Assembly: GCA_039588295.1 (NCBI GenBank)
Contig: JBDHAB010000014.1
Coordinates: 8,312 to 72,311 of the forward strand
Length of the DNA: 64,000 bases
Reading direction: 5' to 3'
Source of the DNA: Gemmatimonadota bacterium
Lineage (GTDB): Bacteria > Gemmatimonadota > Gemmatimonadetes > Gemmatimonadales > GWC2-71-9
The stretch's first letter is position 1, and every line of letters begins with the position of its first letter. The notes beneath the pieces were generated by a model that did no database searches, was not told the DNA's origin, and saw only the letters and a program-made list of their open reading frames with translations. Positions 39,764 through 54,963 of this stretch are shown piece by piece. Position numbers and translations under genes: made by a program.

Positions 39764-39928
39764 CTAGCTAAACTGCACGCCAACGGCGTTTTTGGGGTGC
39801 GTGACGGGATTTGAACCCGCGACCTCTGCATTCACAGTGCAGCGCTCTACCTGCCGAGCTCCACGCACCATAGGATGGTGATGGTCTTCGCCCTCAGAGA
39901 GGGGCTCGGTATGGAGTTGCGTCAACAT
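39764..39928 (-). CDS. Putative His/Phe-sensing leader ORF reading through tRNA-His
   Basis: MLTQLHTEPLSEGEDHHHP...QFS*; HHH ends 5 nt before the tRNA-His 5' end. Confidence 0.55.
   Translation of the reverse strand: MLTQLHTEPLSEGEDHHHPMVRGARQVERCTVNAEVAGSNPVTHPKNAVGVQFS
39793..39869 (-). tRNA. tRNA-His(GTG)
   Basis: Cloverleaf with G-1:C73, loop CTGTGAA, CCA. Confidence 0.92.
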
Positions 39929-39947
39929 GGTGAACCTTGAGATGGGC

Positions 39948-39975
39948 AGAATACTCGTGTGAGACGCCCTGTCAA
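39948..39975 (-). promoter_or_regulatory. Sigma70-like promoter of the His/Phe tRNA unit
   Basis: TTGACA-16 nt-TATTCT. Confidence 0.6.
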
Positions 39976-40024
39976 GAGGAGATGTTCAAAAACAGGCCCC
40001 GACCGGTACGATTACACAGAGGTC

Positions 40025-40399
40025 ATGCGGAACTTCGTCTACTGGAACATCTACGACAAGGTGTTCACCGTCCAGAACCGAGAGACCGGTCGAGTACGTC
40101 GGCACACCCCGAACATCACCCTCCGAGATGTCGATTTTGAGATCGACCAAAAGGAGCGGGAGCGGATGCTCAGAGAAAATCGGAAGACCCTCCACGCCGG
40201 GGTCCGGGGGGAGATCATCCCAACCGACCCGGAAAACCTAGAAGGCTGGACACAGGTGATCTACGACCCCGGCAGACACACCACCTTCGTCACCATCGAG
40301 GACGAGAAGCCGGTGTTCAGAGCCGAGCTCGTGCACATGTTCGTGAAGAACCAGCGAGCCCAGGTCTACGCGAAGGGCCTCACCTACGAGTTCGTGTAG
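40025..40399 (+). CDS. Hypothetical phage protein
   Basis: GAGG SD; start MRNFVYWNIY. Confidence 0.65.
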   Translation: MRNFVYWNIYDKVFTVQNRETGRVRRHTPNITLRDVDFEIDQKERERMLRENRKTLHAGVRGEIIPTDPENLEGWTQVIYDPGRHTTFVTIEDEKPVFRAELVHMFVKNQRAQVYAKGLTYEFV

Positions 40400-40717
40400 C
40401 TCGCCTTCGGGCGACACTTCCACATCACGTCACGCAGGAGGTGGCGTCGAGTGGGCCTCGTGGTGCATGCCGGGCACGGAGAGGAACGTCCGGCGCTATG
40501 GTGTATGACGAGCTCGTCATCGCAGCGCCAACAGACGACACCCGGAGGGGATGCCATCTCCTCCGGGTGTTCGTAGTCATCCATGAAATTGGCGGCCCGG
40601 GATCCCGTACAAGGTTGGGCGTCCCCTAGCCCCGAGCGGCCCTCGACATTCCCCGCAAGCCGTCGCCTGCGGGTTCCGTCGGGAGCATCGTGGGCCTCCC
40701 TGGCCATATTGTGTAGG

Positions 40718-40794
40718 TGGTAGCGGGAACGAGATTTGAACTCGTGACCTCCGGGTTATGAGCCCGGCGAGCTACCTGACTGCTCCATCCCGCA
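40718..40794 (-). tRNA. tRNA-fMet(CAT)
   Basis: Unpaired 1:72, GGG/CCC anticodon stem, CTCATAA, CCA. Confidence 0.9.
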
Positions 40795-40920
40795 TCAGGT
40801 TGAGAAAATACGAGACCAGCCTGTCACGTCGCCCATCGGCGGCTGTTCTCGGGATTGTGATTTGCTACGAAAGGGGTTCCCCGGGCGCTCCTGTGAGCGC
40901 CGCGCGGGGAGGGAAAAGTT

Positions 40921-41071
40921 GATCAACGCCGAGTGAATAACCTTGAGTTGCGTTTTCACGCCAGATTTACATGTCTGGTGGCTTTACCAATTTGCCTATC
41001 TGCCCTTAGTGGTGGGCAGAGTTGGACTCGAACCAACAATTGCTTGTGAGATTGTTCTGTTGGCGTTGATC
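40921..41071 (-). ncRNA. Circularly permuted tRNA-mimic RNA A (Y-RNA-like)
   Basis: Terminal stem GATCAACGCC/GGCGTTGATC; then CACAAGCA, T-arm, loop-closed acceptor TCTGCCC-ACCACTAA-GGGCAGA, D-arm, anticodon arm. Confidence 0.8.
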
Positions 41072-41079
41072 GAAAAGTT

Positions 41080-41211
41080 ACGAAGCGACCGAGTTGAAGA
41101 GCTTGTTTGGTTGCAAAGCTGGAATCGAACCAGCGACCTACTGTGTCATTGACAGTTGCTCTAACCGAATGAGCTACTTGCTTGTGAGCCCTGCTGTGGT
41201 GGTTGCTTCGT
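41080..41211 (-). ncRNA. tRNA-mimic RNA B (long stem continues from the acceptor stem)
   Basis: ACGAAGCAACC/GGTCGCTTCGT enclosing CACAA-GCAAG, D-arm, ACTGT-CAATGAC-ACAGT and T-arm. Confidence 0.8.
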
Positions 41212-41342
41212 GGCGCCGGATCCAGGAGTCGAACCTGGCAGTTGCTTGTAGACATTCACCCGTGAGCTCCCCGGAGGGAGCGAGTGGCGGTGTCGGATCT
41301 AGCCGATCTGAAAAATCGGTGACCCCCACGGGTCAATCCGGC
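41211..41342 (-). ncRNA. tRNA-mimic RNA C (giant variable arm, CCA end)
   Basis: GCCGGAT/ATCCGGC-G-CCA, 6-bp D-stem, loop TTTTCAG, about 60-nt variable arm ending TACAAGCA. Confidence 0.8.
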
Positions 41343-41420
41343 AAGTGGGGTGTTCGCTTGAGGGAGTTCCCTCTTCTCCCCCGAAGGGAAAGGGCAGCGA
41401 AACGGTGCCCTGAAAAAGTT

Positions 41421-41554
41421 GCGAAGTGACCGAGGGGAGAGGCTGTTTTGGTGCAAGGAGCAGGATTTGAACCCGCGACCTTCTGGTTATCGACCAGACG
41501 CTCAACCGACTGAGCTATCTTTGCTTGTGAGCCTAACTGGAGTGGTCACTTCGT
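41421..41554 (-). ncRNA. tRNA-mimic RNA D (paralog of B; encloses an Ile(GAT)-like tRNA at 41449-41524)
   Basis: ACGAAGTGACC/GGTCACTTCGC, CACAA-GCAAAGA, loop TCGATAA, internal ACCA. Confidence 0.8.
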
Positions 41555-41556
41555 AG

Positions 41557-41692
41557 TGGAGGACCCTGGATTCGAACCAAGAGTTGTTTAGCTTGTGGAC
41601 ATTCGCCGAGAGCTCCCGTGAAGGAGCGAGTGGTGGTGTCGGTTTCTACCGATTTACCGTCGGGTTGACCCTCCATTAGGGCCGTGTCCTCC
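41557..41692 (-). ncRNA. tRNA-mimic RNA E (paralog of C)
   Basis: GGAGGAC/GTCCTCC-A, GGCCCT/AGGGTC D-stem, loop CGGTAAA, giant variable arm ending CACAAGCT. Confidence 0.8.
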
Positions 41693-41845
41693 ATGTTGTT
41701 CAGGGTAGTTCCGAGTACGTGGTCTGGGGGGCTTCAAGGTCCCGACCGCTACTGGGTCGGGGTTGTGCTTGTTAGACCTGCGTGTATGGAACAGCCGTGA
41801 GTTCGGGATACTGCGCGCAGTCATACACGCTGTCAAGACCCTTTC

Positions 41846-42418
41846 TCAGATTTTCTCAACTCCGGCCGGCGAAATCGAGTAGCCGGTCTTGCGGCCGGCC
41901 TTGATGAACCGCTGCGCCGCGTAGGCGATGTAGGTCGCGGTGAGCTGGATGAACGGCAGGAACTCCCCGTCCTCGCAGGTCGGAGCTCCAGCGTCGCCCA
42001 CGTCGTCGATGACGAAGTCCTCGTCCCAAATGGCCCGCCCAAAGCCCCCATCGGCCGCAAGAGCCCCGTGGAGGCACGGGACCCCGTGCTCCCGAGCGAA
42101 CTTCTGAACGATCCTACGGGCCTCTCCGTTGTCCAGGCAGTCGATGAGTAGATCCGCCCCGCCGAGAAGCTGATTCTCGTTGTCGGCCGTCAGCTTGTTG
42201 CTCACGACCTCGATCTTACGGCCATAGCAGAACTGCATGGCCGCCTTGAGAGCCTCAGTCTTCTTCTTGCCCACCCCATTCTTGAAATGGAACTGAGAAG
42301 CGACGTTCTTCATCTCCACCCGGTCGAAGTCGATGACCTTGATGGTCACCTCCTCGTTCCGGAGGGTCTGCACCAGATGGGAACCCAGTGCGCCGACGCC
42401 GATGATCGTGATTTTCAT
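41846..42418 (-). CDS. ThiF/E1-like adenylyltransferase
   Basis: IIGVGALGS, IDFDRVEMKN..SQ, GKKK, DCLDN, candidate catalytic Cys in PTC. Confidence 0.92.
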   Translation of the reverse strand: MKITIIGVGALGSHLVQTLRNEEVTIKVIDFDRVEMKNVASQFHFKNGVGKKKTEALKAAMQFCYGRKIEVVSNKLTADNENQLLGGADLLIDCLDNGEARRIVQKFAREHGVPCLHGALAADGGFGRAIWDEDFVIDDVGDAGAPTCEDGEFLPFIQLTATYIAYAAQRFIKAGRKTGYSISPAGVEKI

Positions 42419-42432
42419 GATGAGGTCTCCTT

Positions 42433-42792
42433 TTACTTGTCGCCCTTTTTCTGCTTCAGGATCTCGTCGGCCACCATCCCCAGGAATTCGTCCTTGCGTT
42501 GCTCTCGACGAACCTCACCCCTCCGAAGGGTCTCTCGCAAGAAATCCACGGTGGACTCGCGAGCCTGACTGACCGCCTGTTGGAGACGATCCGTATTCTT
42601 GATGGCATCCAGGACCGAAGTGGACGGCCCCTTGGCAGTGAACGTGAACTTGTCCCCGTCCTTCACCAAACGGGAACTCCCTCCCGCGGATTGGTGGAGC
42701 TTCCGCAGAGCTCGGAACCCCTCCATCGTTTTCGACCACATCGACTCCGGAATTTGGAGGGTGACGGTGTGTTCGATTATGTCGTTGCTCAT
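42433..42792 (-). CDS. Hypothetical protein within the Ubl operon
   Basis: 119-aa ORF between Ubl and E1. Confidence 0.65.
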   Translation of the reverse strand: MSNDIIEHTVTLQIPESMWSKTMEGFRALRKLHQSAGGSSRLVKDGDKFTFTAKGPSTSVLDAIKNTDRLQQAVSQARESTVDFLRETLRRGEVRREQRKDEFLGMVADEILKQKKGDK

Positions 42793-42828
42793 CGGGATCT
42801 TGAACCGGGTTTGTTACCTCTATTCCCG

Positions 42829-43092
42829 TTAGCCCCCGAACGGAGTCTTCGGACGAACCTGAATCAGGTTGTAGTCCCGATCGGCGTTCGCCGAAAAACG
42901 GTCCACCACGAAATCGGCGAAATCCGGATCCGCGTCGGCCGGAATGCCCGGGATCGACCCATTGGAAACGGCCTCCGAAACCCAGGTCTTGATGTCGCCA
43001 TCGACGGCATCGAAGAACACAGGATCCGGGAGATCCCCGTTCTCTCCCTTGTAGGTGATGTTGAGACGTGCTTGCGTGTTATCCATGTCCAT
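42829..43092 (-). CDS. Ubiquitin-like protein with C-terminal GG
   Basis: 87 aa ending LIQVRPKTPFGG; AAGGAG SD; lies between JAB and E1. Confidence 0.8.
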   Translation of the reverse strand: MDMDNTQARLNITYKGENGDLPDPVFFDAVDGDIKTWVSEAVSNGSIPGIPADADPDFADFVVDRFSANADRDYNLIQVRPKTPFGG

Positions 43093-43465
43093 GACGATTC
43101 TCCTTTGAGTAGTCGCGGAGCTGTGCAGCCCAGTCGGGCTCGTCCGCGAGAAAATGGTTGTAGTCGTGCTTCTTGGGTCCTTCGTAGTTCAAGCCGATCA
43201 CACGATCGGAACTCGTGATCCACCAGGTCAGGCGTCGCCCGAGCCCGAGCTCTACGGCGGCGAAGGTGGTGATGTCGGTCCAGGAAGGGCCGGGCAGACC
43301 CGACCCCGGGTGACTGTGTGCGAACCCCAGGAATGCTTCCCTTCGGTGCTCCCACAGAACGTCCCACAGATCCCGACTGTCGGGGAGACTGCCTCCCGTT
43401 CGGCCGTTTGGCAAATGCCAATGGACGACTCCTGCACCCGTAATGACTGCGCCTGCTTCGATCAT
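43079..43465 (-). CDS. JAB/MPN metallopeptidase
   Basis: N-terminal E and GFAHSHP.....GPSWTD JAMM motif. Confidence 0.88.
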   Translation of the reverse strand: MIEAGAVITGAGVVHWHLPNGRTGGSLPDSRDLWDVLWEHRREAFLGFAHSHPGSGLPGPSWTDITTFAAVELGLGRRLTWWITSSDRVIGLNYEGPKKHDYNHFLADEPDWAAQLRDYSKENRHGHG

Positions 43466-43548
43466 CGCTTCCTCCAAGGAACATGCGTGAACGCCAAAAT
43501 GAGCACGCAGATCAGCATGAACACGAGCACTACGGGTGAAAAATTCAT
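43462..43548 (-). CDS. 28-aa membrane peptide
   Basis: MNFSPVVLVFMLICVLILAFTHVPWRKR; ATGA overlaps at both ends. Confidence 0.55.
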   Translation of the reverse strand: MNFSPVVLVFMLICVLILAFTHVPWRKR

Positions 43549-44123
43549 CGTTTCCTCTTCTTGATAACTCGTGGAATCTCGTCGAGAGTCGCCAGAACTT
43601 CCTCGTTCTGACGTTTCTGCCATCCCTGGAGCCTTACCGAGGTCTTCAGGTAGTAGGGATGCTTGAGCCAGTCAGCGTACTGAATGTTGCCTCGCACCTT
43701 GTTGCACTTGCGGCAAGCCGACACGAGGTTGGCTTCGGTGGACGGCCCTCCGTCCTCCCAGAGCACGAGGTGGTCCACGGTGAGCGGGACCTCCTTGTTG
43801 TTGCAGTAACGGCAGGCGTACCCATCACGCCGATAGACGTTCCAGGAGACACCCTGCTCGATGTTGCGTTGGCACTTGCGGGCGACGGACTTGTACAGCT
43901 TCCCGTCCTCGGCCTTCTCCAGCACTTCGGTCTCGACGAGGTCGGACTGACGGATGAGTTTTTGCCATTCCTCGGTCGTCGGGGTGAGGACACGGATGTC
44001 CCCTTCATGCTCTCCGAATTCGGGGAACACGACGACGAGGGTCTGATCGTTGCCAGCCCACACCCCACCCACCAGGAGAATCTCCTGGCCAACGGTCTTG
44101 ATATCGAGGTCTTTGAATTCCAT
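43545..44123 (-). CDS. HNH endonuclease
   Basis: RDGYACRYC...LTVDHL...GG....NLVSACRKCN. Confidence 0.9.
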   Translation of the reverse strand: MEFKDLDIKTVGQEILLVGGVWAGNDQTLVVVFPEFGEHEGDIRVLTPTTEEWQKLIRQSDLVETEVLEKAEDGKLYKSVARKCQRNIEQGVSWNVYRRDGYACRYCNNKEVPLTVDHLVLWEDGGPSTEANLVSACRKCNKVRGNIQYADWLKHPYYLKTSVRLQGWQKRQNEEVLATLDEIPRVIKKRKR

Positions 44124-45055
44124 CAGACATGCCTCCATACGACGAGCTTGTGCTCGCGGATCGCTTGGCGAATAACTGCGGGCAGAGATTCCAGAGTGAA
44201 GTAGGTGTCGCCCTTCTCATCGGTGCCGTGATCTGTAAGACAAACACCGGCATCGATGATTTGGAGGTTCGTGTCGCACACGCACTCCAGGCGCTGCCCA
44301 TCGACGCGGTACTTCACGGTCCACTCATTCTTGCGACCACTCTTACGGTGGTCCAGATACTGCGCACCGCCGACCGTGAGAGCCGCCTTGGCAGCCTCCT
44401 GGAAATCCTCCTTGGCCAGTTCACGCCGACCAGCACCATCCCCGAGCTTCTCCAGGAGCTCCGCACGACGAGCCACCTTGGCGAGACGGGCCTCCTCCTC
44501 GGCACGACGACGGATGAGCTCCTGACGACGAAGCTCTGCCTGCTGACGCTGGTAGACCTCCATGCGGAAGGCTGCATCGAGCGCGGGCACCACACTGCGG
44601 ATACCGAACGTGCTGATCTGGTTGTCGAGAAAAGCGTTCATGACTTCCTCTTCGGGACCGAGGGGAAAATCCTGCTCACAGAAAATGAGAGGCCCCTCGG
44701 GGTAAATGCGGCCAGCTCGCACACGCGAGAACCGGTCGAGGTCTTCGGGAAGGAGATAGACCTTCTCCGAGTAGTTGATGATCTTGCCCGGGTCGGGGTC
44801 GATCCGGGTGTCGTCGGGGACCAGACGGTCCCCGACCAGGTAGCCCTTGACCGAGCTCTTGAGAAGTTCAGGAGCCGGGTCAGCGGGCTTCGGGTCCTCG
44901 GCCTTGTTGCCTTCGATCTGGAAGGCGTACCAACCAAAATCCCGAGGCCGAGTCCCGAGCTTGAAAGTTCGGGACTCGGAGTGGAGAGACCCACCACCCG
45001 TCCAAGGAAGAGTAGTGGTCTCCCCCTCGGCCGTGAGTAGATCTCTCCAACCCAT
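44123..45055 (-). CDS. Candidate divergent E2-like protein
   Basis: C-terminal DAGVCL followed by FTLESLPAVIRQAI resembles the E2 G.[IV]CL active site and following helix; operon context. Confidence 0.5.
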   Translation of the reverse strand: MGWRDLLTAEGETTTLPWTGGGSLHSESRTFKLGTRPRDFGWYAFQIEGNKAEDPKPADPAPELLKSSVKGYLVGDRLVPDDTRIDPDPGKIINYSEKVYLLPEDLDRFSRVRAGRIYPEGPLIFCEQDFPLGPEEEVMNAFLDNQISTFGIRSVVPALDAAFRMEVYQRQQAELRRQELIRRRAEEEARLAKVARRAELLEKLGDGAGRRELAKEDFQEAAKAALTVGGAQYLDHRKSGRKNEWTVKYRVDGQRLECVCDTNLQIIDAGVCLTDHGTDEKGDTYFTLESLPAVIRQAIREHKLVVWRHV

Positions 45056-45064
45056 GGGGTCACC

Positions 45065-47177: not shown

Positions 47178-47234
47178 AAAATGCCCGTTGCTGCACTGCG
47201 CTCGACTGGTACGGGCGGCCCGTCGAACTGAAAA

Positions 47235-47465: not shown

Positions 47466-47501
47466 TTAGTAGATCTTGAAAACTTCGTTCGTCATCCCCA
47501 T
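47466..47501 (-). CDS. Putative leader peptide MGMTNEVFKIY upstream of the Met tRNAs
   Basis: GAGG SD; followed by alternative hairpins. Confidence 0.4.
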   Translation of the reverse strand: MGMTNEVFKIY

Positions 47502-47521: not shown

Positions 47522-47599
47522 TGGTGGACGTAGGTGGATTTGAACCACCGACCTTCCGCTTATCAGGCGGCTGCACCGACCAGGCTGTGCTACACGTCC
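47522..47599 (-). tRNA. tRNA-Ile(GAT)
   Basis: Cloverleaf, CTGATAA, CCA. Confidence 0.9.
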
Positions 47600-47603
47600 T
47601 CGG

Positions 47604-47677
47604 TCGGCCTGGAAGGAGTTGAACCTTCGACCTCGCACTTATCAGGCGCGCGCTCTAACCAACTGAGCTACAGACCG
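47604..47677 (-). tRNA. tRNA-Ile(GAT)
   Basis: Cloverleaf, CTGATAA, followed by CCG rather than CCA. Confidence 0.9.
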
Positions 47678-47720
47678 AGTAGATAATCGGTCCAATGTCA
47701 CTCTCGTCTTCGTTTTCCAT
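47655..47720 (-). CDS. Ile-containing leader ORF reading into tRNA-Ile
   Basis: AAGAAAGGAGCAG SD; MENEDESDIGPIIYSVCSSVG*. Confidence 0.6.
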   Translation of the reverse strand: MENEDESDIGPIIYSVCSSVG

Positions 47721-47751
47721 CTCGGTCTGCTCCTTTCTTGGTTGATGTTCT

Positions 47752-47826: not shown

Positions 47827-47831
47827 GTGTT

Positions 47832-48571: not shown

Positions 48572-48634
48572 CGTTTCAGTATGGCAGAAATGGAACCGAC
48601 GGCCAAGGTGTCCTGTGCGGACCAGTGTAAAAAG

Positions 48635-48710
48635 CGGGGCGTACGGGATTTGAACCCGTGACCTCCTACGTGACAGGCAGGCGTCCTAAGCCAGACTAGA
48701 CCAACACCCC
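48635..48710 (-). tRNA. tRNA-Asp(GTC)
   Basis: Cloverleaf, CTGTCAC, G73, no encoded CCA. Confidence 0.9.
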
Positions 48711-48841
48711 ATGTTGGCGGAGCAGACGAGAATCGAACTCGCAACCTTCGGACAGACAATCCGTTGCGCTACCAATTGCGCCACTGCTCCGTACATATCG
48801 TCGGTATCGTCCGCATCATCGCTTTCGCTGTTGGTGTTCAT
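48686..48841 (-). CDS. Asp-rich leader ORF reading through tRNA-Asp
   Basis: AAGAAAGGAGCAG SD; MNTNSESDDADDTDDMY then enters the tRNA. Confidence 0.65.
   Translation of the reverse strand: MNTNSESDDADDTDDMYGAVAQLVAQRIVCPKVASSILVCSANMGCWSSLA
48715..48790 (-). tRNA. tRNA-Asp(GTC), variant loop
   Basis: Loop TTGTCTG, G73, CCA. Confidence 0.85.
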
Positions 48842-49083
48842 CGTGCTGCTCCTTTCTTGGGGTGAGTGGGTGTCTGGAAAGTTCGGCTGTTTGATCCCAC
48901 AGGCCGTCCGGTCGCCTGCTGTATCGCCCCTCGGTGCGGTGCGCTGTCGTGCACCTCGCTTCATCGAGGCGCGTTAGGATGGGATGGAAAAGTTGAGGCT
49001 TTTGTGTCTACCGGTCAGCCTCGGTGGCCGGCCATCACGGATCCTTGATCAGGGGACAACCTGGGACAGGATTGGAAAAGTTA

Positions 49084-49275: not shown

Positions 49276-49278
49276 CGG

Positions 49279-49353
49279 AGCCCGCGAGAGGATTCGAACC
49301 TCCGACTCCCTCATTACGAATGAGGTGCTCTAGCCGGACTGAGCTACACGGGC
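49279..49353 (-). tRNA. tRNA-Thr(CGT)
   Basis: Cloverleaf, TTCGTAA. Confidence 0.9.
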
Positions 49354-49390
49354 GATTGATGTTGGTGTTCTCCTGTTGAAGTGAAGTGCT

Positions 49391-49464
49391 TGGAGCTGGC
49401 GGTGAGAATCGAACTCACGTCTTCGGGTTACAAATCCGGAGCTCTGCCATTGAGCTACGCCAGC
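49391..49464 (-). tRNA. tRNA-Thr(TGT)
   Basis: Cloverleaf, TTTGTAA, CCA. Confidence 0.9.
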
Positions 49465-49563
49465 GATAAGGCCGGCGTGGCCAGTCCGTGTCGAGCAACC
49501 CTTCCGGGCTCCCCGGCGGGTTTCTTCACTCAGTTGGAGTTCGGTAAATCCGCCGGGAAATGC

Positions 49564-49659
49564 TCAACACGGGGTCATATCGCCCATAATGGGCAATACG
49601 ACGGCCACGACGACCAGATTGGTCGTTGTCGTGGCTGTGTATGTCGTGGAGCGTTTCAT
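49564..49659 (-). CDS. thrL-like leader peptide heading the tRNA operon
   Basis: MKRSTTYTATTTTNLVVVAVVLPIMGDMTPC*; the stop lies in the 5' strand of a long hairpin. Confidence 0.7.
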   Translation of the reverse strand: MKRSTTYTATTTTNLVVVAVVLPIMGDMTPC

Positions 49660-49707
49660 GGCGAAAAATCCGAAGCCGCTTTCCTGCCAAGGGAGGCGAC
49701 CTGTCCA

Positions 49708-49736
49708 GGTGTACGCGCGCTTCGACGGGCTGTCAA
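49708..49736 (-). promoter_or_regulatory. Sigma70-like promoter of the Thr-Asp-Val-Ile-Met tRNA unit
   Basis: TTGACA-17 nt-TACACC. Confidence 0.55.
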
Positions 49737-49760
49737 GCACCCTTGTTCACTTTTTTTGAA

Positions 49761-50540
49761 TCACCATCGCCACACGAACTCGTCGAGCCACTGCTTGCGG
49801 CTCTCGTCGTCGAGCGCGAGGAAAGCCTGCTCCTCCGCCATCATCTCCACGTTGAAAGCGTCGGCAATCTTGCGGTGTGCGGTGCCGGGGTCGAACGCCC
49901 AAGGCTGCCAGGGGTAGTGGGCCCCCAGGCGATACTGGTTCTCCACCTCGATGATGCAGTCGATCCACGGCTTCATAGACGCCCACGTCATCGTCTCACG
50001 GTCCATCTCGCGCTTGGCGAACTCCTGCCGGTGCAGGAGCTTGAGCGGGAGCGGGCTGTGCCCGAGGTTGTCGTTGATGGAACGCCCCGCGATGACGATG
50101 TTCGACTGGCCGTTACCGAGGCCGTTGTTGCGCTCGCATACGAGATGCTCCCGAGAGCACTCCCACGGAACGTAGTAGTGAAGAGCAATCCGGAGGTCCG
50201 TAGGGACGAGGTACATCTGGACGCCCGTGTACCAACATCGCTGGGGGAGGCCCGCATCGAGGCCGAACCGCTTAGCCATCTTCACCGAGACCCAGTCCCG
50301 GTTTTTATTGCGCTTTGCGATCTCGTCGTAGTGCATCCACACGAGCTCGGGGTCGTGCTGATCGCCCCCGGTCATCACCAGGAGCTCCCGGTCAGCGTAC
50401 TTCTTGTAGCGAAGGAGGCGTCCGGTCTCGGGGTCAACACGGTTTAACGCGGCAACGCGCATCCGCTCTTGAAATTCGGGATCGTGTTTCCCTTTCCACT
50501 CGCGGAGCTTATCCCGGTTCTTTCGACCGTGACGGCCCAT
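49761..50540 (-). CDS. HNH-like protein
   Basis: CWYTG...SREHL...NIV....IN pattern. Confidence 0.55.
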   Translation of the reverse strand: MGRHGRKNRDKLREWKGKHDPEFQERMRVAALNRVDPETGRLLRYKKYADRELLVMTGGDQHDPELVWMHYDEIAKRNKNRDWVSVKMAKRFGLDAGLPQRCWYTGVQMYLVPTDLRIALHYYVPWECSREHLVCERNNGLGNGQSNIVIAGRSINDNLGHSPLPLKLLHRQEFAKREMDRETMTWASMKPWIDCIIEVENQYRLGAHYPWQPWAFDPGTAHRKIADAFNVEMMAEEQAFLALDDESRKQWLDEFVWRW

Positions 50541-51817
50541 CAGTGTCGGGGAACATTCCCGGGGTCGACAGCGATCTTCGCCACGATCCTCTTGCACTCG
50601 GAACACGAAACCGTGAGGGCTCCGTTCTCGTAGGAGCACCAGGTGGGGGCACCGATGTGGCACTGGGGATGCAGGAACATCTCGGTGCTGTGGCTCTTGT
50701 GGTCACACCCCTCCACGGCGCACGTCATACCGTCGAGCGTCACCTGGGTCAGCGGCGGGAGGTTTTTGCGGCGCCCATTCTCCGCCTCGACCACTTCCTC
50801 GTCGTCCCCCTCGTGGTCATGGCTCCCATGCTTGTGGGACAGTATCGGCCCCAACGCCGGATAGAATTTCATGGCGTCGTTGGGCATCTGCGGAAACCCA
50901 GAGACCTGACCGTCACCGATCTCCATGATGATCCACTCGCCGTCTGCCGTCTGTGCGAGGTCCATGGAGAAGAACTGGCTGTCCACCTTCGCCGCCAGCG
51001 CGCCGAGAGTTTCGAACGAAGGGAGATCCTCGATGGATTTCGGGGCCGAAAAACTGCGAGGCATACTCTCCTCCCAACCACCGTCGGGCTCCGGGACCTC
51101 GTGGGTGACACGCTCGTAGGCGTCCTCGTCCCAGTACTCGCTGATGTTGATGCTGTGTCCGTTGAGCCAGAAGATTCGGAACTCCTCCGACATCGGCATC
51201 CCCGACTGAGGATGCTTGCCGATGGATTTGAGCGGCACGAACTGACGCAGGATCACACCCCCCTGGAGATCGTCACCCTGGCGCTCCAGGAAATTCGAGA
51301 TCACGGTCTGGGCCTTCTCCATGTTGGGGATGAAGCACGCCTCCTCCCACTCGTGTTTCCTACTTTTCACGTAGTCCTTGATGAGGATGCCGTGCTCGTA
51401 ACGACCGAGCATCTCCTGGGCAGTACGGAGGATCCTCTCGACACTGATCTCATGCTTCTGGATGATTGCGGAGTCGGGCGTCGAATCGACGAGATCGAGG
51501 TACCAACCGGGGAACTCGTGAGCCTTCCGATACTGGTGGGGGGTGTTGATGAGGTCCACCAGGCAAACCTGGAGCTTCTCGTAGAGCTTCTCGTACTGAT
51601 CGGACGTGAGCATCCACCCCCGGTAGATAGCCGGTGTGGGCTCCTCGAAATCAGGGACGTACTTCACGGCCGCTGCCGCATCGTCGTCGTTGACCAGGGA
51701 CTCCCAGTGCACGAAAGCGACCTGATAGCCACACTGCTTGGCGATGTCGGCTTCGGTGGCCCAATCTGGGTCGGGTTTTTTGGGCTCGAAGGGATCGGAT
51801 GGGAACAGGACGAGCAT
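50540..51817 (-). CDS. ATP-grasp protein (R2K clade) with C-terminal Cys/His domain
   Basis: YRGWML, KDYVKSRKHEW, EFRIF, FFSMD...EIGDGQVSG. Confidence 0.8.
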   Translation of the reverse strand: MLVLFPSDPFEPKKPDPDWATEADIAKQCGYQVAFVHWESLVNDDDAAAAVKYVPDFEEPTPAIYRGWMLTSDQYEKLYEKLQVCLVDLINTPHQYRKAHEFPGWYLDLVDSTPDSAIIQKHEISVERILRTAQEMLGRYEHGILIKDYVKSRKHEWEEACFIPNMEKAQTVISNFLERQGDDLQGGVILRQFVPLKSIGKHPQSGMPMSEEFRIFWLNGHSINISEYWDEDAYERVTHEVPEPDGGWEESMPRSFSAPKSIEDLPSFETLGALAAKVDSQFFSMDLAQTADGEWIIMEIGDGQVSGFPQMPNDAMKFYPALGPILSHKHGSHDHEGDDEEVVEAENGRRKNLPPLTQVTLDGMTCAVEGCDHKSHSTEMFLHPQCHIGAPTWCSYENGALTVSCSECKRIVAKIAVDPGNVPRH

Positions 51818-51852
51818 TACCTCGATTTTACCCCTATCGGGCCCCGTATCTG

Positions 51853-52869
51853 ATGGCACACGTCCATAAAGCACTCATTGTCCTGCTGTTTGCGCCTGCG
51901 TGCGACAAACAGGCTGACGACTCCGCAGCCAAGACTGATCCCGCTGCGAAGCTGGATGTCGGCGCAAAGCTCGATGTCGGGACCCCTGGGACGCACACGG
52001 TCAACTTCGTCAACCAGTGCTCCAGTGACATCTGGGTTGGATCAGTCGGCAATACCGGGTTCAGCGGTCTCAACAACGGCGGTTGGCAGATGGGAGCCAA
52101 GGGCTCCGGCACCGACAAGACCACCCTCCAAGTTGAAGTGGGATGGAGCGGTCGTTTCTGGCCACGTACCGGGTGCACGTTCAACGATAAGGACCTCTGC
52201 GACGGGTTCACGCCCTGCTGCACGAGTGGCTCTTGTCTGACTGCGGACAACAAAACCTTCGGCCTGGAGTGCGCATATTCTGGGAAAGCCCCGGTGGGGA
52301 TCGGCGAGTTCACGTTCGACGCCGCTGGAGGTCTCGGCCCCTATGACACCTACGATGTGAGCTTCGTTGATGGATGGGGGGAGTCCCTCTCTGTCGTGGC
52401 TGTGGCCGGCACCTTCAACCCGAAACCAGACCCAGGGTTGAAAGCTCCTTGGTGCACGGTGTCAGGATGCACTTCGGCGCCGACGTGTCCGAAGGGGCTC
52501 AGTGCCGGTGGCGATAGCTGCTGGAGCCCCTGTCAGAACGCGGTCAACAGCGGGGACCCCGATAGCACGCAGGCGAAACTCTGCTGCTCGTGCTCAATGA
52601 CGAGTCCCATCACCTGCGGAGAGGCCACATGCGCTGGCGGCTACGGCTGCTCTCCCTACACGCAACCTCCGTGGCCGGCGGACCAGGTGTGCAATCCCTG
52701 GAACACGGACAAGAGCCGAGCGTGGGACACCACGAGCCAGGACTACATCGCCAACGTCCACAAAACGTGCCCCGGGGTCTACGCCTGGCAGTTCGATGAT
52801 GTCAACGGAACGTACAACTGCCGCAAGACCAACGGCCTCGTGGACTACACCGTCACCTTCTGCCCGTAG
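51853..52869 (+). CDS. Thaumatin-like (PR-5 family) lipoprotein
   Basis: Lipobox-like FAPAC; NQC...IW, WSGRFWPRTGC, EFT, YDVSFVDG, C.SPC, CPGVYAWQFDD, YTVTFCP. Confidence 0.92.
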   Translation: MAHVHKALIVLLFAPACDKQADDSAAKTDPAAKLDVGAKLDVGTPGTHTVNFVNQCSSDIWVGSVGNTGFSGLNNGGWQMGAKGSGTDKTTLQVEVGWSGRFWPRTGCTFNDKDLCDGFTPCCTSGSCLTADNKTFGLECAYSGKAPVGIGEFTFDAAGGLGPYDTYDVSFVDGWGESLSVVAVAGTFNPKPDPGLKAPWCTVSGCTSAPTCPKGLSAGGDSCWSPCQNAVNSGDPDSTQAKLCCSCSMTSPITCGEATCAGGYGCSPYTQPPWPADQVCNPWNTDKSRAWDTTSQDYIANVHKTCPGVYAWQFDDVNGTYNCRKTNGLVDYTVTFCP

Positions 52870-52885
52870 CGGGTAGAGTGACGGC

Positions 52886-53575
52886 ATGCACATCGTCGAA
52901 CCTGGCTGGACCGTCCGCGCGTTCAGGCTCGACGGTACCTCTGTAGTAGGCACCGTCGAGTCAGGCCCTTACCGGGCCCAAGACGGGAAGATCGTGGACA
53001 AGACTGTCCGTCTGCACGACGGCTCCGAGCACCGTTCACATCTGTGCGAGCCCGCAGGAGAGACCTTGCGGACGTGGCCCGACAGCCATCCAACGAAGGT
53101 GCACTTCGACCCCATCGCGTACGGGGCCATCGACAAAATACTCGGAGGACACTGGAGCAGCCACCTCACCGAGTACGTCGACATCGACTGGGAGCGGCGT
53201 ACGATGAAGACCAATCAGCTCTCCACGTTTGTCGGGTCCACCAGGGTCTACGACAAAGACGGCTGCCTGGTGAAGGACGATGGTGATGTTCGGATGCCTG
53301 CAGAGGAGGTACTGGAAAAGCTGGCTCCGATTGCGTGGGCTTTCCAGGACGACGAGGTGGAGCGTCTCAAAGGCCCCATCACGGATGCCTTCCAAAACCT
53401 GCAAGCGCAAGGGATTGCCGTAGCCCACATCCATCTACCCCGATGGGCCAAAGGGATCTGGCCCGGGGAACGGGTCTTCGGAGTGCCCTTCTGCAAAGCG
53501 CCGTTCCCCATGGTCCTGTCACAGAAACACTACGGCCGCTTCGCAGCGATCATCGGCATCTTCGGGGCGCCCTAG
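52886..53575 (+). CDS. Hypothetical protein
   Basis: 229-aa ORF; TAGAGT 6 nt before ATG. Confidence 0.6.
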   Translation: MHIVEPGWTVRAFRLDGTSVVGTVESGPYRAQDGKIVDKTVRLHDGSEHRSHLCEPAGETLRTWPDSHPTKVHFDPIAYGAIDKILGGHWSSHLTEYVDIDWERRTMKTNQLSTFVGSTRVYDKDGCLVKDDGDVRMPAEEVLEKLAPIAWAFQDDEVERLKGPITDAFQNLQAQGIAVAHIHLPRWAKGIWPGERVFGVPFCKAPFPMVLSQKHYGRFAAIIGIFGAP

Positions 53576-53958
53576 AACAGACGGAGCTGGGCTCCCTCTT
53601 TGGTGAGCTTGTGGCTCGGGTCGTGGGCCTGGAGGGCAACCTCGACATCGTCCACCTGGGGCCAGTCAGACATTCCCTGATGGTTCTTGATCGAGTGCGC
53701 GGCCATCCACTCGGCGGCGGTATCGAACACCTCCTCGGCCACGACCTCGTAGTAGCCCTCCTGACCGACGATCTCGCACATCAACTTGAGATCCTCTGCG
53801 AGATCTCCGTCCCGCATCCAGAGCTCGCCGTTGAGCTTCATGATGTCGTTCATCCACGCGGCAACGCGGTCAGCCTTGGCTTTATCGGTGAAGACCCCTG
53901 CGGTCCAATAGCCGTCTCCGGTCTGCTCTCCGTGGAAATTGATACTGTAGATCTCCAT
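53572..53958 (-). CDS. Hypothetical acidic protein
   Basis: 128-aa ORF. Confidence 0.6.
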   Translation of the reverse strand: MEIYSINFHGEQTGDGYWTAGVFTDKAKADRVAAWMNDIMKLNGELWMRDGDLAEDLKLMCEIVGQEGYYEVVAEEVFDTAAEWMAAHSIKNHQGMSDWPQVDDVEVALQAHDPSHKLTKEGAQLRLF

Positions 53959-54009
53959 ATCGCTTCTACCCCTTGACAGGGGTATGACAGAGGGGTCAGT
54001 ATTTTCACG

Positions 54010-54261
54010 ATGGCCGACGTGCTCAACACCGGGCTCCTAGAGCTCGACGAAATCCTCTCCGGGGAGGGGACCTTGCGCCGTGGTGAGCTGTCGGTCTTCG
54101 TGGCAATGCCACCGACCTCCAAGACGATCTTCTGGCGACAACAGCTCGAACGCGCGATGGAGGACGGCAAGACTGCCGTCTACATCGACTACGAGATGAA
54201 ACCGACGGACAGCCTTTCGGACCTGGGGGCCACACCCCCGGACAAGCCGATCAAGGTCTAG
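54010..54261 (+). CDS. Short RecA/DnaB/KaiC-fold N-terminal fragment
   Basis: TGLLELDEIL.G...RGEL, degenerate Walker A (PPTSKT), VYIDYEM; only 83 aa. Confidence 0.6.
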   Translation: MADVLNTGLLELDEILSGEGTLRRGELSVFVAMPPTSKTIFWRQQLERAMEDGKTAVYIDYEMKPTDSLSDLGATPPDKPIKV

Positions 54262-54312
54262 CCCAGTCCGGAGCATAGAGCTGACAGGACTGGGCGGGCC
54301 GGAAAGGCCGTC

Positions 54313-54576
54313 ATGTCCAAGAGAGCTCTACGTCGTCATCACCGTGAGCGCATGCTTCAGCACTGCGCTCGCATCCTCAAGATCCGTTGGGACGAGTCAC
54401 TCGCCACCGGGGACATCACCTTCGATGACATCGAGCGGTGGTCTCGGCTTCGTCGGGACAACTTCTCGTTCTGTTCCTGCTGGATGTGCTGCAACCCGCG
54501 GCGCCTTCGGAACTCGAACGGTCCTTCACGCACCGTGCAGGAACTCCGGGCGATGCAGGAGGTGGATGATGAGTAG
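54313..54576 (+). CDS. Small basic Zn-binding protein, paralog 1
   Basis: RALRRHH...CSCWMCCNPRR...RTVQE. Confidence 0.7.
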   Translation: MSKRALRRHHRERMLQHCARILKIRWDESLATGDITFDDIERWSRLRRDNFSFCSCWMCCNPRRLRNSNGPSRTVQELRAMQEVDDE

Positions 54577-54835
54577 GGCACTACGCCGACACCACCGGCA
54601 ACGGATGGTGAACAGGGCTCGTGCGCTCTTCCGACGGTGGGGGGACACCGAGGAGAGGATCCGACACACGGCGCCTCGACTCGCGGACAACCTCTGCTGG
54701 TGCTCGTGCTACTCGTGCGGCAACCCGCGACGCCACTTTGGGTTCTGCATCTACGGCAAGACCAACAGTGTCCGAACCCGACAAGAGGTTTTCGCTGACC
54801 TCCAACTCCAAGAACAACTCGAAGAAATTGAATGA
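54569..54835 (+). CDS. Small basic Zn-binding protein, paralog 2
   Basis: RALRRHH...CSCYSCGNPRR...RTRQE; GGAGG SD. Confidence 0.7.
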   Translation: MSRALRRHHRQRMVNRARALFRRWGDTEERIRHTAPRLADNLCWCSCYSCGNPRRHFGFCIYGKTNSVRTRQEVFADLQLQEQLEEIE

Positions 54836-54840
54836 CTCGC

Positions 54841-54869
54841 TTGACACGAACGTCGAGCACGACTACAAC
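54841..54869 (+). promoter_or_regulatory. Sigma70-like promoter of the Lys tRNA/release-factor unit
   Basis: TTGACA-17 nt-TACAAC. Confidence 0.6.
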
Positions 54870-54878
54870 GGCAAGACC

Positions 54879-54911
54879 ATGTTCTGCATGAAACGCAAGA
54901 CCAAGCTGTAG
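54879..54911 (+). CDS. Lys-rich leader peptide MFCMKRKTKL
   Basis: AAA/AAG/AAG codons; the stop overlaps the base of hairpin 54911-54944. Confidence 0.55.
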   Translation: MFCMKRKTKL

Positions 54912-54963
54912 CCCGAGGGGACGGACGCAATCCGCCTCTTGGGCGTCGATAGCGTTTATCCCC

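What the first reader, a model, noticed from the sequence alone, without database searches (positions are those of the whole stretch)
39764..54944. tRNA genes preceded by leader ORFs rich in their own cognate codons
Seen in six places: HHH before tRNA-His, DDADDTDD before tRNA-Asp, I..II before tRNA-Ile, a Thr/Val run before the Thr...Val operon, KRKTK before four Lys tRNAs, and MGM before two CAT tRNAs. Three follow TTGACA promoters and three have SD sequences. Known: cognate-codon leaders control amino-acid biosynthesis operons (thrL, hisL, ilvL); I do not know of this logic applied to tRNA genes. Inference: ribosome stalling senses loss of a specific host tRNA (starvation or anticodon nuclease attack) and switches on the phage replacement.
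Basis: partly seen in the sequence, partly recalled or inferred. Interest (0 to 1): 0.9.

Follow-up and report, generated by a model that had tools for sequence, protein, structure and literature searches.

The report
Codon-matched leader mini-genes before phage tRNAs
A giant phage puts tiny reading frames, rich in the very codons that the next tRNA reads, directly in front of five of its tRNA gene groups, which looks like a ribosome-based gauge that adjusts tRNA output to demand, a control known so far for amino-acid genes.

Summary
Five of the six claimed leaders (Thr, Asp, Ile, His, Lys) are real and conserved. The sixth (MGM before tRNA-Met) is not.

- **Conservation:** the five recur in a clade of six jumbo-phage lineages: the window, metagenome contigs L028/L005, and four IMG/VR contigs of 83-619 kb.
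- **Cognate enrichment:** the cognate amino acid is the most enriched of 20 in 23 of 25 leader ORFs.
- **Chance test:** a frame-blind permutation over all 15 tRNA upstream regions of the window gives p=0.008. Host tRNAs show nothing (1 of 43).
- **Asp and Ile leaders:** they keep an AAGGAG-type ribosome site, an ATG and in-frame indels, and run straight into the tRNA.
- **Thr and Lys leaders:** they follow conserved TTGAC(A/T) promoters and end in or at conserved hairpins.
- **Not classical attenuation:** there is no U-tract terminator and no Rfam leader or T-box match.

Best reading (about 0.55): translated sensors of cognate aminoacyl-tRNA supply, where ribosome position decides whether the downstream tRNA folds and matures.

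Against this:
- Substitutions show no codon periodicity.
- One lineage has its His run out of frame.
- Thr and Lys lack clear ribosome sites.
- There are no expression data.

I found no paper describing this. Earlier notes of this scan describe the same Thr leader in a relative, and similar leaders in other phages.

The parts
49708..49736 (-). Promoter-like site of the Thr-Asp-Val-Ile-Met tRNA operon: TTGACA, 17 nt, TACACC
   Evidence: Read. The -35 TTGAC(A/T) and a TA-starting -10 recur in 5 relatives. It is not reported by the consensus scan.
49564..49659 (-). Thr leader ORF, 31 codons plus TGA. It has 8 Thr codons (codons 5-13 lie at 49621-49647) and also 5 Val, 3 Met, 1 Ile and 1 Asp.
   Evidence: Six lineages keep a 30-31 codon ORF with 7-9 Thr, and Thr ranks first of 20 in all six. 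There is no clear SD.
49487..49635 (-). Three conserved hairpins of the Thr leader: H1 49604-49635 (Thr arm paired with Val arm), H2 49574-49602, H3 49487-49572. The 5' strand of H3 holds the TGA stop.
   Evidence: MFE z=-7.06 and -5.56 in L028. RNAalifold on 6 sequences gives 53 pairs, 6 of them with compensatory changes.
49470..49482 (-). Anti-acceptor segment GGCCACGCCGGCC. It is complementary both to the Val arm of H1 (12 of 13) and to the 5' acceptor strand of tRNA-Thr (8 pairs).
   Evidence: Constraint folds. It pairs with the tRNA 5' strand in the free or at-stop state. It pairs with the Val arm when the Thr codons are masked, in 3 of 6 lineages. The segment is present in 5 of 6 lineages. 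No covariation is available.
49277..49464 (-). tRNA-Thr(UGU) and tRNA-Thr(CGU)
48791..48854 (-). Asp leader: AAGGAG (48849-48854), ATG at 48841, then 17 codons with 6 Asp (48797-48820). The last codon abuts tRNA-Asp, and the frame runs on to a stop inside the second tRNA-Asp.
   Evidence: All six lineages have SD plus ATG plus 6-7 Asp in 11-17 codons. ATG-to-tRNA distances are 51, 39, 45, 33, 36 and 33 nt. The region is not structured (z 0.8 and 0.3).
48634..48790 (-). Two tRNA-Asp(GUC). The first has a variant anticodon loop and the second a canonical one.
47678..47735 (-). Ile leader: AAGGAG (47730-47735), ATG at 47720, then 14 codons with 3 Ile. The frame runs into tRNA-Ile and stops in its D-loop. 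It is a paralogue of the Asp leader, sharing the SD context and the N-terminal part.
   Evidence: Four lineages have 2-4 Ile. ATG-to-tRNA distances are 43, 43, 40 and 37 nt.
47522..47677 (-). Two tRNA-Ile(GAU)
39948..39975 (-). Promoter-like site of the His-Phe tRNA operon: TTGACA, 16 nt, TATTCT
   Evidence: 10 of 12 matches. It is conserved in 4 relatives.
39869..39928 (-). His leader, 20 codons with 4 His (the run lies at 39875-39883). The last codon abuts tRNA-His. A weak AAGG sits 10 nt before the ATG.
   Evidence: Four of five lineages have 4-5 His, ranked first. In G404 the His codons lie out of frame (1 His, rank 7).
39793..39868 (-). tRNA-His(GUG)
54841..54869 (+). Promoter-like site of the Lys tRNA operon: TTGACA, 17 nt, TACAAC. 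It ends 9 nt before the leader ATG, so the mRNA would be nearly leaderless.
   Evidence: It is conserved in G401, G402 and G404 with a 9-10 nt gap to the ATG.
54879..54911 (+). Lys leader ORF MFCMKRKTKL plus TAG, with 3 Lys codons (54891-54905)
   Evidence: Four lineages read MF(C/V)MK(R/L)K(T/S/H)KL, Lys ranks first, and there are AAA/AAG synonymous flips. A partial copy is present in G403.
54911..54944 (+). Conserved 14-bp hairpin that starts at the G of the TAG stop codon
   Evidence: RNAalifold on 4 sequences, with one compensatory pair (A-U to U-A). No U tract follows.
54964..55440 (+). Four tRNA-Lys (CUU, CUU, UUU, UUU)
47466..47501 (-). MGM ORF (MGMTNEVFKIY). I reject it as a leader.
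   Evidence: It is present only in the window. The spacer is absent or different in L028, G404 and G402. It has only 2 Met including the start.

Best explanation
These are translated leader mini-genes that gauge how fast ribosomes can read the codons served by the tRNA gene that follows. They set how much of that tRNA matures.

In each unit a short ORF carries a cluster of cognate codons, mostly the rarer synonymous ones. It lies just upstream of an RNA structure that a passing ribosome must unwind.
- For Asp, Ile and His, that structure is the tRNA itself. The ORF has no stop before the tRNA and runs into it.
- For Thr and Lys, it is a conserved hairpin that contains or abuts the stop codon and lies next to the first tRNA.

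If the cognate aminoacyl-tRNA is scarce, the ribosome waits on the cognate codons. The downstream RNA then folds undisturbed and the tRNA can be processed. In the Thr leader, the freed Val-codon arm can capture an anti-acceptor segment that otherwise pairs with the tRNA's 5' acceptor strand.

If supply is ample, ribosomes run on. They either invade the tRNA sequence or restore the competing fold, and less tRNA matures. This would be a supply-and-demand feedback.

Shown: the ORFs, their conservation, the cognate enrichment, the start signals of two of them, the conserved hairpins, and the lack of terminators.

Inferred: translation, stalling, the sign of the effect, and any link to host tRNA loss.
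For: - **Cognate enrichment:** the cognate residue ranks first of 20 by binomial enrichment in 23 of 25 leader ORFs over five families and up to six lineages.
- **Chance test:** the window-wide, ORF-blind permutation over all 15 upstream regions gives p=0.008.
- **Ranking among candidate ORFs:** of 145 SD-plus-start ORFs upstream of tRNAs in all loci, the ten richest in cognate residues all belong to these leaders or to a second Lys leader in L010.
- **Asp leader across lineages:** the six lineages are hardly alignable, yet all keep SD, ATG and 6-7 Asp. Their ATG-to-tRNA distances all differ by multiples of 3. Ile behaves the same way in four lineages.
- **Paralogy:** the Asp and Ile leaders are paralogues with a shared 5' part and tRNA-specific 3' parts.
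- **Same SD as real genes:** the AAGGAG type is also used by the window's protein genes, at 20 of 48 crude starts against a 14% background.
- **Rare codons preferred:**
  - GAT 0.68 in leaders against 0.32 in the window's genes.
  - ATT 0.75 against 0.14.
  - CAT 0.67 against 0.25.
  - ACA 0.31 against 0.06.
- **Synonymous flips** occur at cognate positions.
- **Conserved structures at the ORF ends:**
- **Ribosome-position-dependent refolding:** it is predicted for the Thr leader in 3 of 6 lineages.
- **Controls:** host tRNAs 1 of 43 at p<=0.05. Distant relatives 6 of 149.
Against: - **No coding signature:** variable columns fall 22, 24 and 24 on codon positions 1, 2 and 3 in the His, Lys and Thr ORFs. 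So there is no coding signature apart from the cognate codons.
- **Exceptions:** in G404 the His run is out of frame (1 His, rank 7). In L028 the Ile leader has only 2 Ile (rank 3).
- **Weak start signals:** the Thr and Lys leaders lack a clear SD. The Lys leader needs near-leaderless initiation.
- **Structure as a partial explanation:** the Thr leader is a strongly structured RNA with covariation. That alone explains part of its conservation and the Val run.
- **Spacer composition:** tRNA spacers in this clade are CA-rich, which favours Thr and His codons in any frame.
- **Weak single cases:** His, Ile and Lys are individually near chance in the window (p 0.06-0.16).
- **Thr switch:** it is predicted in only 3 of 6 lineages, has no covariation, and one lineage (G403) lacks the anti-acceptor segment.
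- **Not general:** relatives at 50-65% protein identity lack the leaders.
Confidence: 0.55

Rival explanations
1. The leaders are untranslated, structured 5' leaders and spacers of tRNA precursors, serving as processing, stability or antitermination signals. The ORFs are incidental. The codon match comes from RNA-level or compositional causes: hairpin arms, CA-rich spacers and triplet-repeat slippage.
For: - The Thr leader has z=-7, three conserved hairpins and compensatory pairs.
- The Lys hairpin is conserved.
- Substitutions show no codon periodicity.
- The His run is out of frame in G404.
- Spacers are CA-rich, and (ACC)n and (CACCAA)n repeats lie before Thr tRNAs in relatives.
- In-frame indels in a GAY repeat could arise by slippage.
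Against: - It does not explain why the enriched residue matches the tRNA in all five families.
- The Asp and Ile leaders are unstructured. They still keep a gene-type SD and an ATG in frame with the cognate run in every lineage.
- Asp, Ile and Lys codons are not CA-rich.
Confidence: 0.22
2. The ORFs are translated, but for another purpose. For example, they may load ribosomes to shield long untranslated tRNA transcripts from Rho or nucleases, or they may yield small peptides. The cognate codons would then not act as a sensor.
For: - SD plus ATG are conserved.
- C-rich, G-poor spacers resembling Rho loading sites precede the Asp and Ile leaders.
- A genuine small protein ORF (39402-39692) also runs 10 nt into tRNA-Phe, so ribosomes approaching tRNAs may be ordinary in this phage.
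Against: - Shielding needs no cognate codons.
- The peptide sequences are not conserved beyond the cognate residues.
- Five different peptides each matching the next tRNA would be unexplained.
Confidence: 0.15
3. The match is chance, found by a reader who could choose among frames and regions.
For: His, Ile and Lys are individually near noise in the window. One of the six examples fails. There is no general enrichment over 149 regions of the wider family (6 at p<=0.05).
Against: - The permutation p is 0.008 with all negatives included.
- D and T runs of 6 of 8 occur only before their own tRNAs.
- Cognate richness is conserved in diverged lineages.
Confidence: 0.04

Closest known systems
Leader-peptide transcription attenuators of amino-acid operons (thrL, hisL, ilvL, pheL, leuL, trpL); names and peptides recalled, class described in PMC1183508 (abstract seen in the listing)
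   Same: A short ORF in the 5' leader carries clustered codons for the amino acid concerned, with rare codons preferred. The ORF overlaps RNA hairpins. The logic is that a slow ribosome changes the fold of the downstream RNA. The Thr leader even begins MKRSTT, much like E. coli thrL as I recall it.
   Different: The controlled genes are tRNAs. No stem-plus-U-tract terminator is present and there is no Rfam leader match. Three of the five ORFs have no stop before the tRNA and run into it, so the switched structure would be the tRNA itself.
pheM-pheST and other aminoacyl-tRNA synthetase leaders (recalled)
   Same: Cognate-codon leaders control a component of the decoding machinery for the same amino acid.
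   Different: Those act by terminator attenuation on protein genes. Here the product is the tRNA, which would close a direct loop between sensor and sensed molecule.
Translation-attenuation leaders such as ermCL and cat leaders (recalled)
   Same: A ribosome paused in a short leader ORF remodels a downstream hairpin without any terminator.
   Different: Those pause on drug-dependent arrest peptides and expose a ribosome-binding site. Here the pause would depend on tRNA supply and would free a tRNA fold.
T-box riboswitches
   Same: They sense the state of a specific tRNA and control decoding-related genes.
   Different: They work by direct RNA-tRNA pairing without ribosomes. There is no T-box match in 38000-57000 at E<=1.
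Phage lambda bar minigenes (recalled)
   Same: Very short phage ORFs whose translation bears on the pool of one tRNA.
   Different: bar minigenes are 2-3 codons long and deplete a tRNA by peptidyl-tRNA drop-off. They are not placed before tRNA genes.
Earlier notes of this scan (e1-5863220, e1-5863232, e1-6122130, e1-6153912)
   Same: They describe the same Thr leader family in a related giant phage, and codon-matched leaders before tRNA genes in unrelated marine phages.
   Different: They are unchecked AI notes on other DNA. Here there are five leader families in one clade, three of them running into the tRNA.

Membership tests
Leader-peptide transcription attenuator (thrL/hisL class) | Short leader ORF with clustered codons cognate to the regulated pathway | tested here: met
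   The cognate residue ranks first of 20 in all five window leaders and in 23 of 25 across lineages.
Leader-peptide transcription attenuator (thrL/hisL class) | Functional translation start of the leader ORF | tested here: inconclusive
   Asp and Ile have AAGGAG-type SD plus ATG in all lineages. His has a weak AAGG/GAGG. Thr has none. Lys would be near-leaderless. There are no expression data (one search listed no RNA holder).
Leader-peptide transcription attenuator (thrL/hisL class) | Mutually exclusive hairpins whose choice depends on ribosome position | tested here: inconclusive
   For the Thr leader, constraint folds switch between an anti-acceptor hairpin and a Val-arm:anti-acceptor pairing in 3 of 6 lineages. 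There is no covariation for the alternative pairs. For Lys, MFE shifts are inconsistent.
Leader-peptide transcription attenuator (thrL/hisL class) | Intrinsic terminator (GC stem plus U tract) between the leader ORF and the regulated genes | tested here: not met
   No terminator-like site lies on the tRNA strand in 49465-49563 or 54912-54963. The Asp, Ile and His ORFs abut the tRNA.
Leader-peptide transcription attenuator (thrL/hisL class) | Regulated genes encode amino-acid biosynthesis or aminoacyl-tRNA synthetase | tested here: not met
   The downstream genes are tRNAs.
Rfam Thr_leader / His_leader and other leader families | Covariance-model match | tested here: not met
   No such hit at E<=1 in 38000-57000.
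T-box riboswitch | Covariance-model match with specifier loop and T-box sequence | tested here: not met
   No T-box hit at E<=1.
Lambda bar-type minigenes | ORF of two or three codons followed by a stop | tested here: not met
   The leaders have 10-31 codons, and three have no stop before the tRNA.

The most novel reading that the evidence does not exclude
A clade of giant phages runs a per-amino-acid supply-and-demand circuit for its own tRNAs. Each codon-matched mini-gene lets the ribosome test the very tRNA species encoded next to it, and ribosome position directly gates folding and processing of that tRNA. In three of the five leaders the tRNA cloverleaf itself takes the place of the attenuator hairpin. 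The same operons carry paired variant-loop and canonical isoacceptors, so the circuit may serve as an inducible backup when host defences cut specific tRNAs.
Probability: 0.4. Interest if true: 0.9.

Novelty: new variant of a known kind. Interest (0 to 1): 0.8.

Why it matters
Regulation of tRNA genes by the decoding status of their own codons has not, as far as my four literature searches show, been described for any organism.

It would extend leader-peptide sensing from amino-acid supply to tRNA supply. It would also add a mechanism in which the regulated RNA fold is the product itself.

It would give a testable handle on a long-standing question: why phages carry tRNAs, whether for codon compensation or for replacement of tRNAs destroyed by host nucleases. 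The nuclease-evasion hypothesis is set out in PMC10264068 (abstract read). An inducible, tRNA-specific response fits that second view.

The elements are short (40-200 nt) and modular, so they are easy to test in reporters.

Tried and rejected
- **Phage records:** a distant blastn of the operon against INPHARED phages found only tRNA-sized matches.
- **Host phylum:** the Thr leader was found in none of 400 other genomes of the phylum that were searched.
- **Second flanking protein:** The search for related loci with the 300-aa protein gave no locus.
- **Short anchors in IMG/VR:** A longer Thr-leader pattern returned the same four contigs.
- **Expression:** no RNA holder was listed among the sequencing runs. 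I did not lay reads.
- **His leader hairpin:** I saw one by eye, but RNAalifold gives only 5 weak pairs without covariation. I dropped it.
- **Decoy idea:** I considered that the Thr anti-acceptor segment mimics the tRNA 5' strand. G404 keeps the segment although its acceptor stem differs, so I dropped this.
- **Direct codon-anticodon pairing (T-box-like):** rejected, because there is no T-box match and complementarity is only 3-5 nt.
- **His(AUG)-like tRNA at 41109:** the His-rich stretch before it comes from a shared CACAAGCAA motif, not from a leader.
- **Phe leader:** I considered one, but the ORF before tRNA-Phe is a conserved 69-96 aa frame without Phe enrichment.
- **630-aa vWA protein:** no PDB or NCBIfam relative.

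Full report
**Context**

The window is G000:C14:8312-72311. C14 is a 72-kb contig of 60% G+C inside a 4.5-Mb, 64% G+C assembly.

Its genes are phage-like:
- a GH25 lysin
- an HNH nuclease
- an L5 gp82-like protein
- a DNA methylase
- ThiF/JAB proteins
- an ATP-grasp protein
- an RNase Z-like hydrolase
- a short release factor

ARAGORN finds 19 tRNAs. Fifteen lie on the minus strand between 39336 and 49464, and four Lys tRNAs lie on the plus strand at 54964-55440. Rfam adds a tRNA at 39633-39707 (a Phe-like GAA anticodon by my reading) and one at 39021-39114.

Relatives of the adjacent 630-aa vWA protein lie on IMG/VR contigs of 85-221 kb and on metagenome contigs. Three of them lie in MAGs titled Myxococcales, Deltaproteobacteria and Haliangiales. 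So this is a fragment of a large phage, probably of Myxococcota.

**The observation**

- **Thr:** TTGACA at 49736, 17 nt, TACACC. The ORF is at 49564-49659 and reads MKRSTTYTATTTTNLVVVAVVLPIMGDMTPC. The tRNA-Thr starts at 49464.
- **Asp:** AAGGAG, ATG at 48841, MNTNSESDDADDTDDMY. The next base is the first of tRNA-Asp.
- **Ile:** the same AAGAAAGGAGCAG context, which occurs exactly twice on C14. ATG at 47720, MENEDESDIGPIIY, then tRNA-Ile one base later.
- **His:** TTGACA at 39975, 16 nt, TATTCT. ATG at 39928, MLTQLHTEPLSEGEDHHHPM, then tRNA-His.
- **Lys:** TTGACA at 54841, 17 nt, TACAAC, 9 nt, then ATG at 54879. It reads MFCMKRKTKL, stops, and tRNA-Lys follows 52 nt later.
- **MGM:** 47466-47501.

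**Is it more than chance?**

I scored every tRNA upstream region of at least 30 nt, up to 200 nt long. The score was the best count of an amino acid in any 8-codon window in any frame.

- **Runs of 6 or more of 8.** Over 149 regions from the window and 28 non-redundant loci, such runs occur 13 times.
  - Four are cognate, against 0.65 expected.
  - These four are Asp and Thr in the window and in its close relative L028.
  - The nine others are Arg, Ser and Ala, the many-codon residues of G+C-rich DNA.
- **Each family alone.** Asp and Thr have empirical p of 0.007-0.008. His, Ile and Lys are at 0.06-0.16.
- **Whole window.** I counted all 15 regions, negatives included, against 123 regions of distant relatives as background. 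Shuffling tRNA identities among regions gives p=0.008. Drawing random identities gives p=0.0015. An earlier, shorter 120-nt version that missed the Thr leader gave p=0.04.
- **Wider family.** There is no general effect: 6 of 149 regions at p<=0.05.
- **Host.** There is no effect: 1 of 43.

**Conservation**

Two metagenome contigs are close relatives. L028 shows 87% identity over the first 135 residues of the vWA protein and L005 shows 82%.

A pattern from the 5' end of tRNA-Asp found four IMG/VR contigs: G401 (619 kb), G402 (83 kb), G403 (96 kb) and G404 (147 kb). They carry 15-55 tRNAs each.

In this clade the leaders recur:

| Leader | Lineages | Peptides | Cognate count |
|---|---|---|---|
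| Asp | 6 | MNTNSESDDADDTDDMY, MNDDNDDDADDTY, MNIENDDCDDVDDTY, MEDDDDADDSY, MDSDDSDDRDLY, MDDDDDVHDPN | 6-7 Asp each |
| Ile | 4 | MENEDESDIGPIIY, MEDNSESDIGPITN, MEKEDSDISDIIY, MEIESDISDIIS | 2-4 Ile |
| His | 5 | 20 codons each | 4-5 His in four lineages; G404 reads MLTQAHTQLPDAGADYNTIM |
| Lys | 4, plus a partial copy in G403 | MF(C/V)MK(R/L)K(T/S/H)KL | 3 Lys |
| Thr | 6 | 30-31 codons | 7-9 Thr |

- **Asp:** every lineage has an AAGGAG-type SD 6-8 nt before the ATG. The ATG-to-tRNA distances are 51, 39, 45, 33, 36 and 33 nt.
- **Ile:** distances are 43, 43, 40 and 37 nt, and all four have an SD.
- **His in G404:** the CAC CAT CAT bases are there but lie in another frame.

Against the amino-acid composition of 45 ORFs of the window, the cognate residue is the most enriched of 20 in 23 of 25 leader ORFs. 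The exceptions are Ile in L028 (rank 3) and His in G404 (rank 7).

Among 145 ORFs with an SD-like motif and a start codon upstream of any tRNA in all loci, the ten richest in cognate residues are these leaders plus MKKKLKRSTAFPIF. That ORF lies before tRNA-Lys(UUU) in the distant relative L010. It is homologous to MKLKRSTARIL in L003 and to a Lys-poor remnant at 55209-55269 of the window.

The MGM ORF is not found in the corresponding spacers of L028, G404 and G402. I reject it.

**Signs of translation, and their limits**

For:
- The SD type of the Asp and Ile leaders is the one seen before protein genes of the window (20 of 48 crude starts against a 14% background).
- All length differences inside the ORFs are multiples of three (Asp, Ile, and one codon in Thr).
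- Indels outside the ORFs are not multiples of three.
- The Asp and Ile leaders are paralogues. The window's Asp leader and L028's Ile leader share a 14-nt stretch after the ATG, and they then diverge into an Asp-rich or an Ile-rich part.
- Cognate positions flip between synonymous codons.
- The leaders prefer the codons that the window's genes avoid: GAT 0.68 against 0.32, ATT 0.75 against 0.14, CAT 0.67 against 0.25, AAA 0.50 against 0.27, and ACA 0.31 against 0.06.
- A preference for slowly read codons is what a sensor would want, but relaxed G+C pressure in non-coding DNA could contribute.

Against:
- Variable alignment columns fall evenly on codon positions (22, 24, 24). Most variable codons change the amino acid, so the peptides as such are not under selection.
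- The Thr and Lys leaders have no clear SD.
- tRNA spacers in this clade are CA-rich. They include (ACC)n and (CACCAA)n-like repeats before Thr tRNAs in G403 and G404. That favours Thr and His codons in any frame.

**RNA structure**

The Thr leader is strongly structured, with z=-7.06 in the window and -5.56 in L028. RNAalifold on six lineages gives three hairpins with 53 pairs, 6 of them with compensatory changes.
- H1 pairs the Thr-codon arm with the Val-codon arm.
- H2 covers codons 20-29.
- H3 starts at codon 30, and its 5' strand holds the TGA.

Between H3 and the tRNA lies GGCCACGCCGGCC (49470-49482). It is complementary to the Val arm (12 of 13) and to the tRNA's 5' acceptor strand (8 pairs). 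I folded with the 30 nt around a chosen codon forced single-stranded.
- In the free and at-stop states, this segment pairs with the tRNA 5' strand.
- With a ribosome on Thr codons 6 or 10, it pairs with the Val arm and the acceptor stem forms.
- This holds in the window, L028 and G404, but not in G401 or G402. G403 lacks the segment.

This is attenuator logic with a tRNA-misfolding hairpin in place of a terminator. It rests on MFE predictions without covariation.

The Lys leader ends at a conserved 14-bp hairpin that begins with the G of TAG and has one compensatory pair. MFE changes with ribosome position were inconsistent.

The Asp leader is unstructured, with z of 0.8 and 0.3.

The Asp, Ile and His ORFs have no stop before the tRNA:
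- Ile stops at tRNA position 21-33.
- His stops 24-27 nt beyond the tRNA.
- Asp stops inside or beyond the second tRNA.

No terminator-like site lies on the right strand between any leader and its tRNA. No Rfam leader or T-box model matches.

**Mechanism**

The simplest account of a tRNA-specific codon cluster placed in frame behind a start signal, just before a structure that a ribosome must unwind, is ribosome-mediated sensing.
- A ribosome waiting for the cognate aminoacyl-tRNA leaves the tRNA, or the hairpin next to it, free to fold.
- A running ribosome invades or re-routes it.

I put this at about 0.55. The sign of the effect, the role of RNase P, and any link to host tRNA loss are inferred.

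Rivals:
- untranslated structured leaders (0.22)
- translation for another purpose, such as shielding from Rho (0.15)
- chance (0.04)

**Comparison with what is known**

It works like leader-peptide attenuation and like terminator-free translation attenuation. It fails two defining features of the classical family, the terminator and the kind of gene controlled, so I do not file it there.

Four full-text searches found no paper on leader peptides before tRNA genes. Most subscription journals are not in that library.

Earlier notes of this scan describe the same Thr leader in a related giant phage (e1-5863220, e1-5863232). They also describe codon-matched leaders before tRNAs in other phages (e1-6122130, e1-6153912). 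These are unchecked notes and not independent evidence.

**Context that fits a counter-defence role, untested**

In 5 of 6 lineages the first tRNA-Asp after the leader has a variant anticodon loop, UU[GUC]AG or UG, and the second has the canonical CU[GUC]AC of the host. The tRNA-Lys(CUU) genes show similar pairs.

Phage tRNAs with altered anticodon loops have been proposed to escape host anticodon nucleases (PMC10264068, abstract read).

**Verdict**

This is a new variant of a known kind of control. The evidence is computational only.

Noticed in passing
window 55651-56332 (+): A short class-I release factor gene lacking domain 1 is split at CGG CTT TGA C (about 55757-55766), with GGAG 3 nt upstream. 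As I recall it, this is the layout of the RF2 programmed +1 frameshift site. The upstream ORF matches PCRF positions 96-131. The downstream ORF matches PCRF 155-194 plus the RF-1 domain. It lies next to the Lys tRNA operon.
   Followed up: partly
window 38130-38978 (-): An RNase Z-like metallo-beta-lactamase gene (NCBIfam RNase_Z, E 3e-24, below the cut-off) lies beside the tRNA clusters. It is a possible phage tRNA 3'-processing enzyme.
   Followed up: partly
window 48634-48790, 54964-55208; L028, L038, L042, L044: Isoacceptors come in pairs. The first tRNA-Asp has the loop UU[GUC]AG or UG, and the second has the canonical CU[GUC]AC as in the host, in 5 of 6 lineages. The tRNA-Lys(CUU) pairs differ at position 38. 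Some Val and Ile tRNAs have C at position 33.
   Followed up: partly
window 49152-49270 (-), 41109-41183 (-), 40954-41067 (-), 55311-55415 (+): These places hold tRNA 3'-half-like fragments and an odd tRNA-like gene with anticodon AUG. They also hold weak YrlA (Y RNA-like) hits, well below the gathering score. A CACAAGCAA motif precedes several of them. They lie near a 630-aa protein (45065-46957) with a C-terminal vWA domain and no PDB or NCBIfam relative.
   Followed up: no
window 39402-39692 (-): A conserved ORF with Cys/His pairs (CNH...CVRCG) overlaps the 5' end of tRNA-Phe by 10 nt. Its stop codon is the TAG inside the tRNA. Homologous frames precede tRNA-Phe in L005, G401 and G404.
   Followed up: partly
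window 47885-48571 (-): A 228-aa helix-turn-helix ORF (weak IS630-like N-terminus) sits inside the tRNA operon between tRNA-Asp and tRNA-Val and overlaps tRNA-Val at 47905. G404 has a similar insert. L028 instead has a different Cys-rich ORF between its Met tRNAs.
   Followed up: no
L010 5635-5688; L003 about 2487-2520; window 55209-55269: A second leader family lies before tRNA-Lys(UUU): MKKKLKRSTAFPIF (4 Lys, strong SD) in L010 and MKLKRSTARIL in L003. The window's counterpart MFPAHDTLKRTLAPSL has one Lys.
   Followed up: partly
L041 about 1679-1740 (-); L038 about 8564-8612 (+): Simple repeats lie before Thr tRNAs in relatives. About 15 ACC units precede tRNA-Thr(AGU) in G403, and a CACCAA-like repeat precedes tRNA-Thr(GGU) in G404.
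   Followed up: no
window 41846-43477 (-), 50540-52869: ThiF-like E1 and JAB-like genes lie in a row, and an R2K ATP-grasp gene sits next to a thaumatin-family gene. This is unusual cargo for a phage.
   Followed up: no
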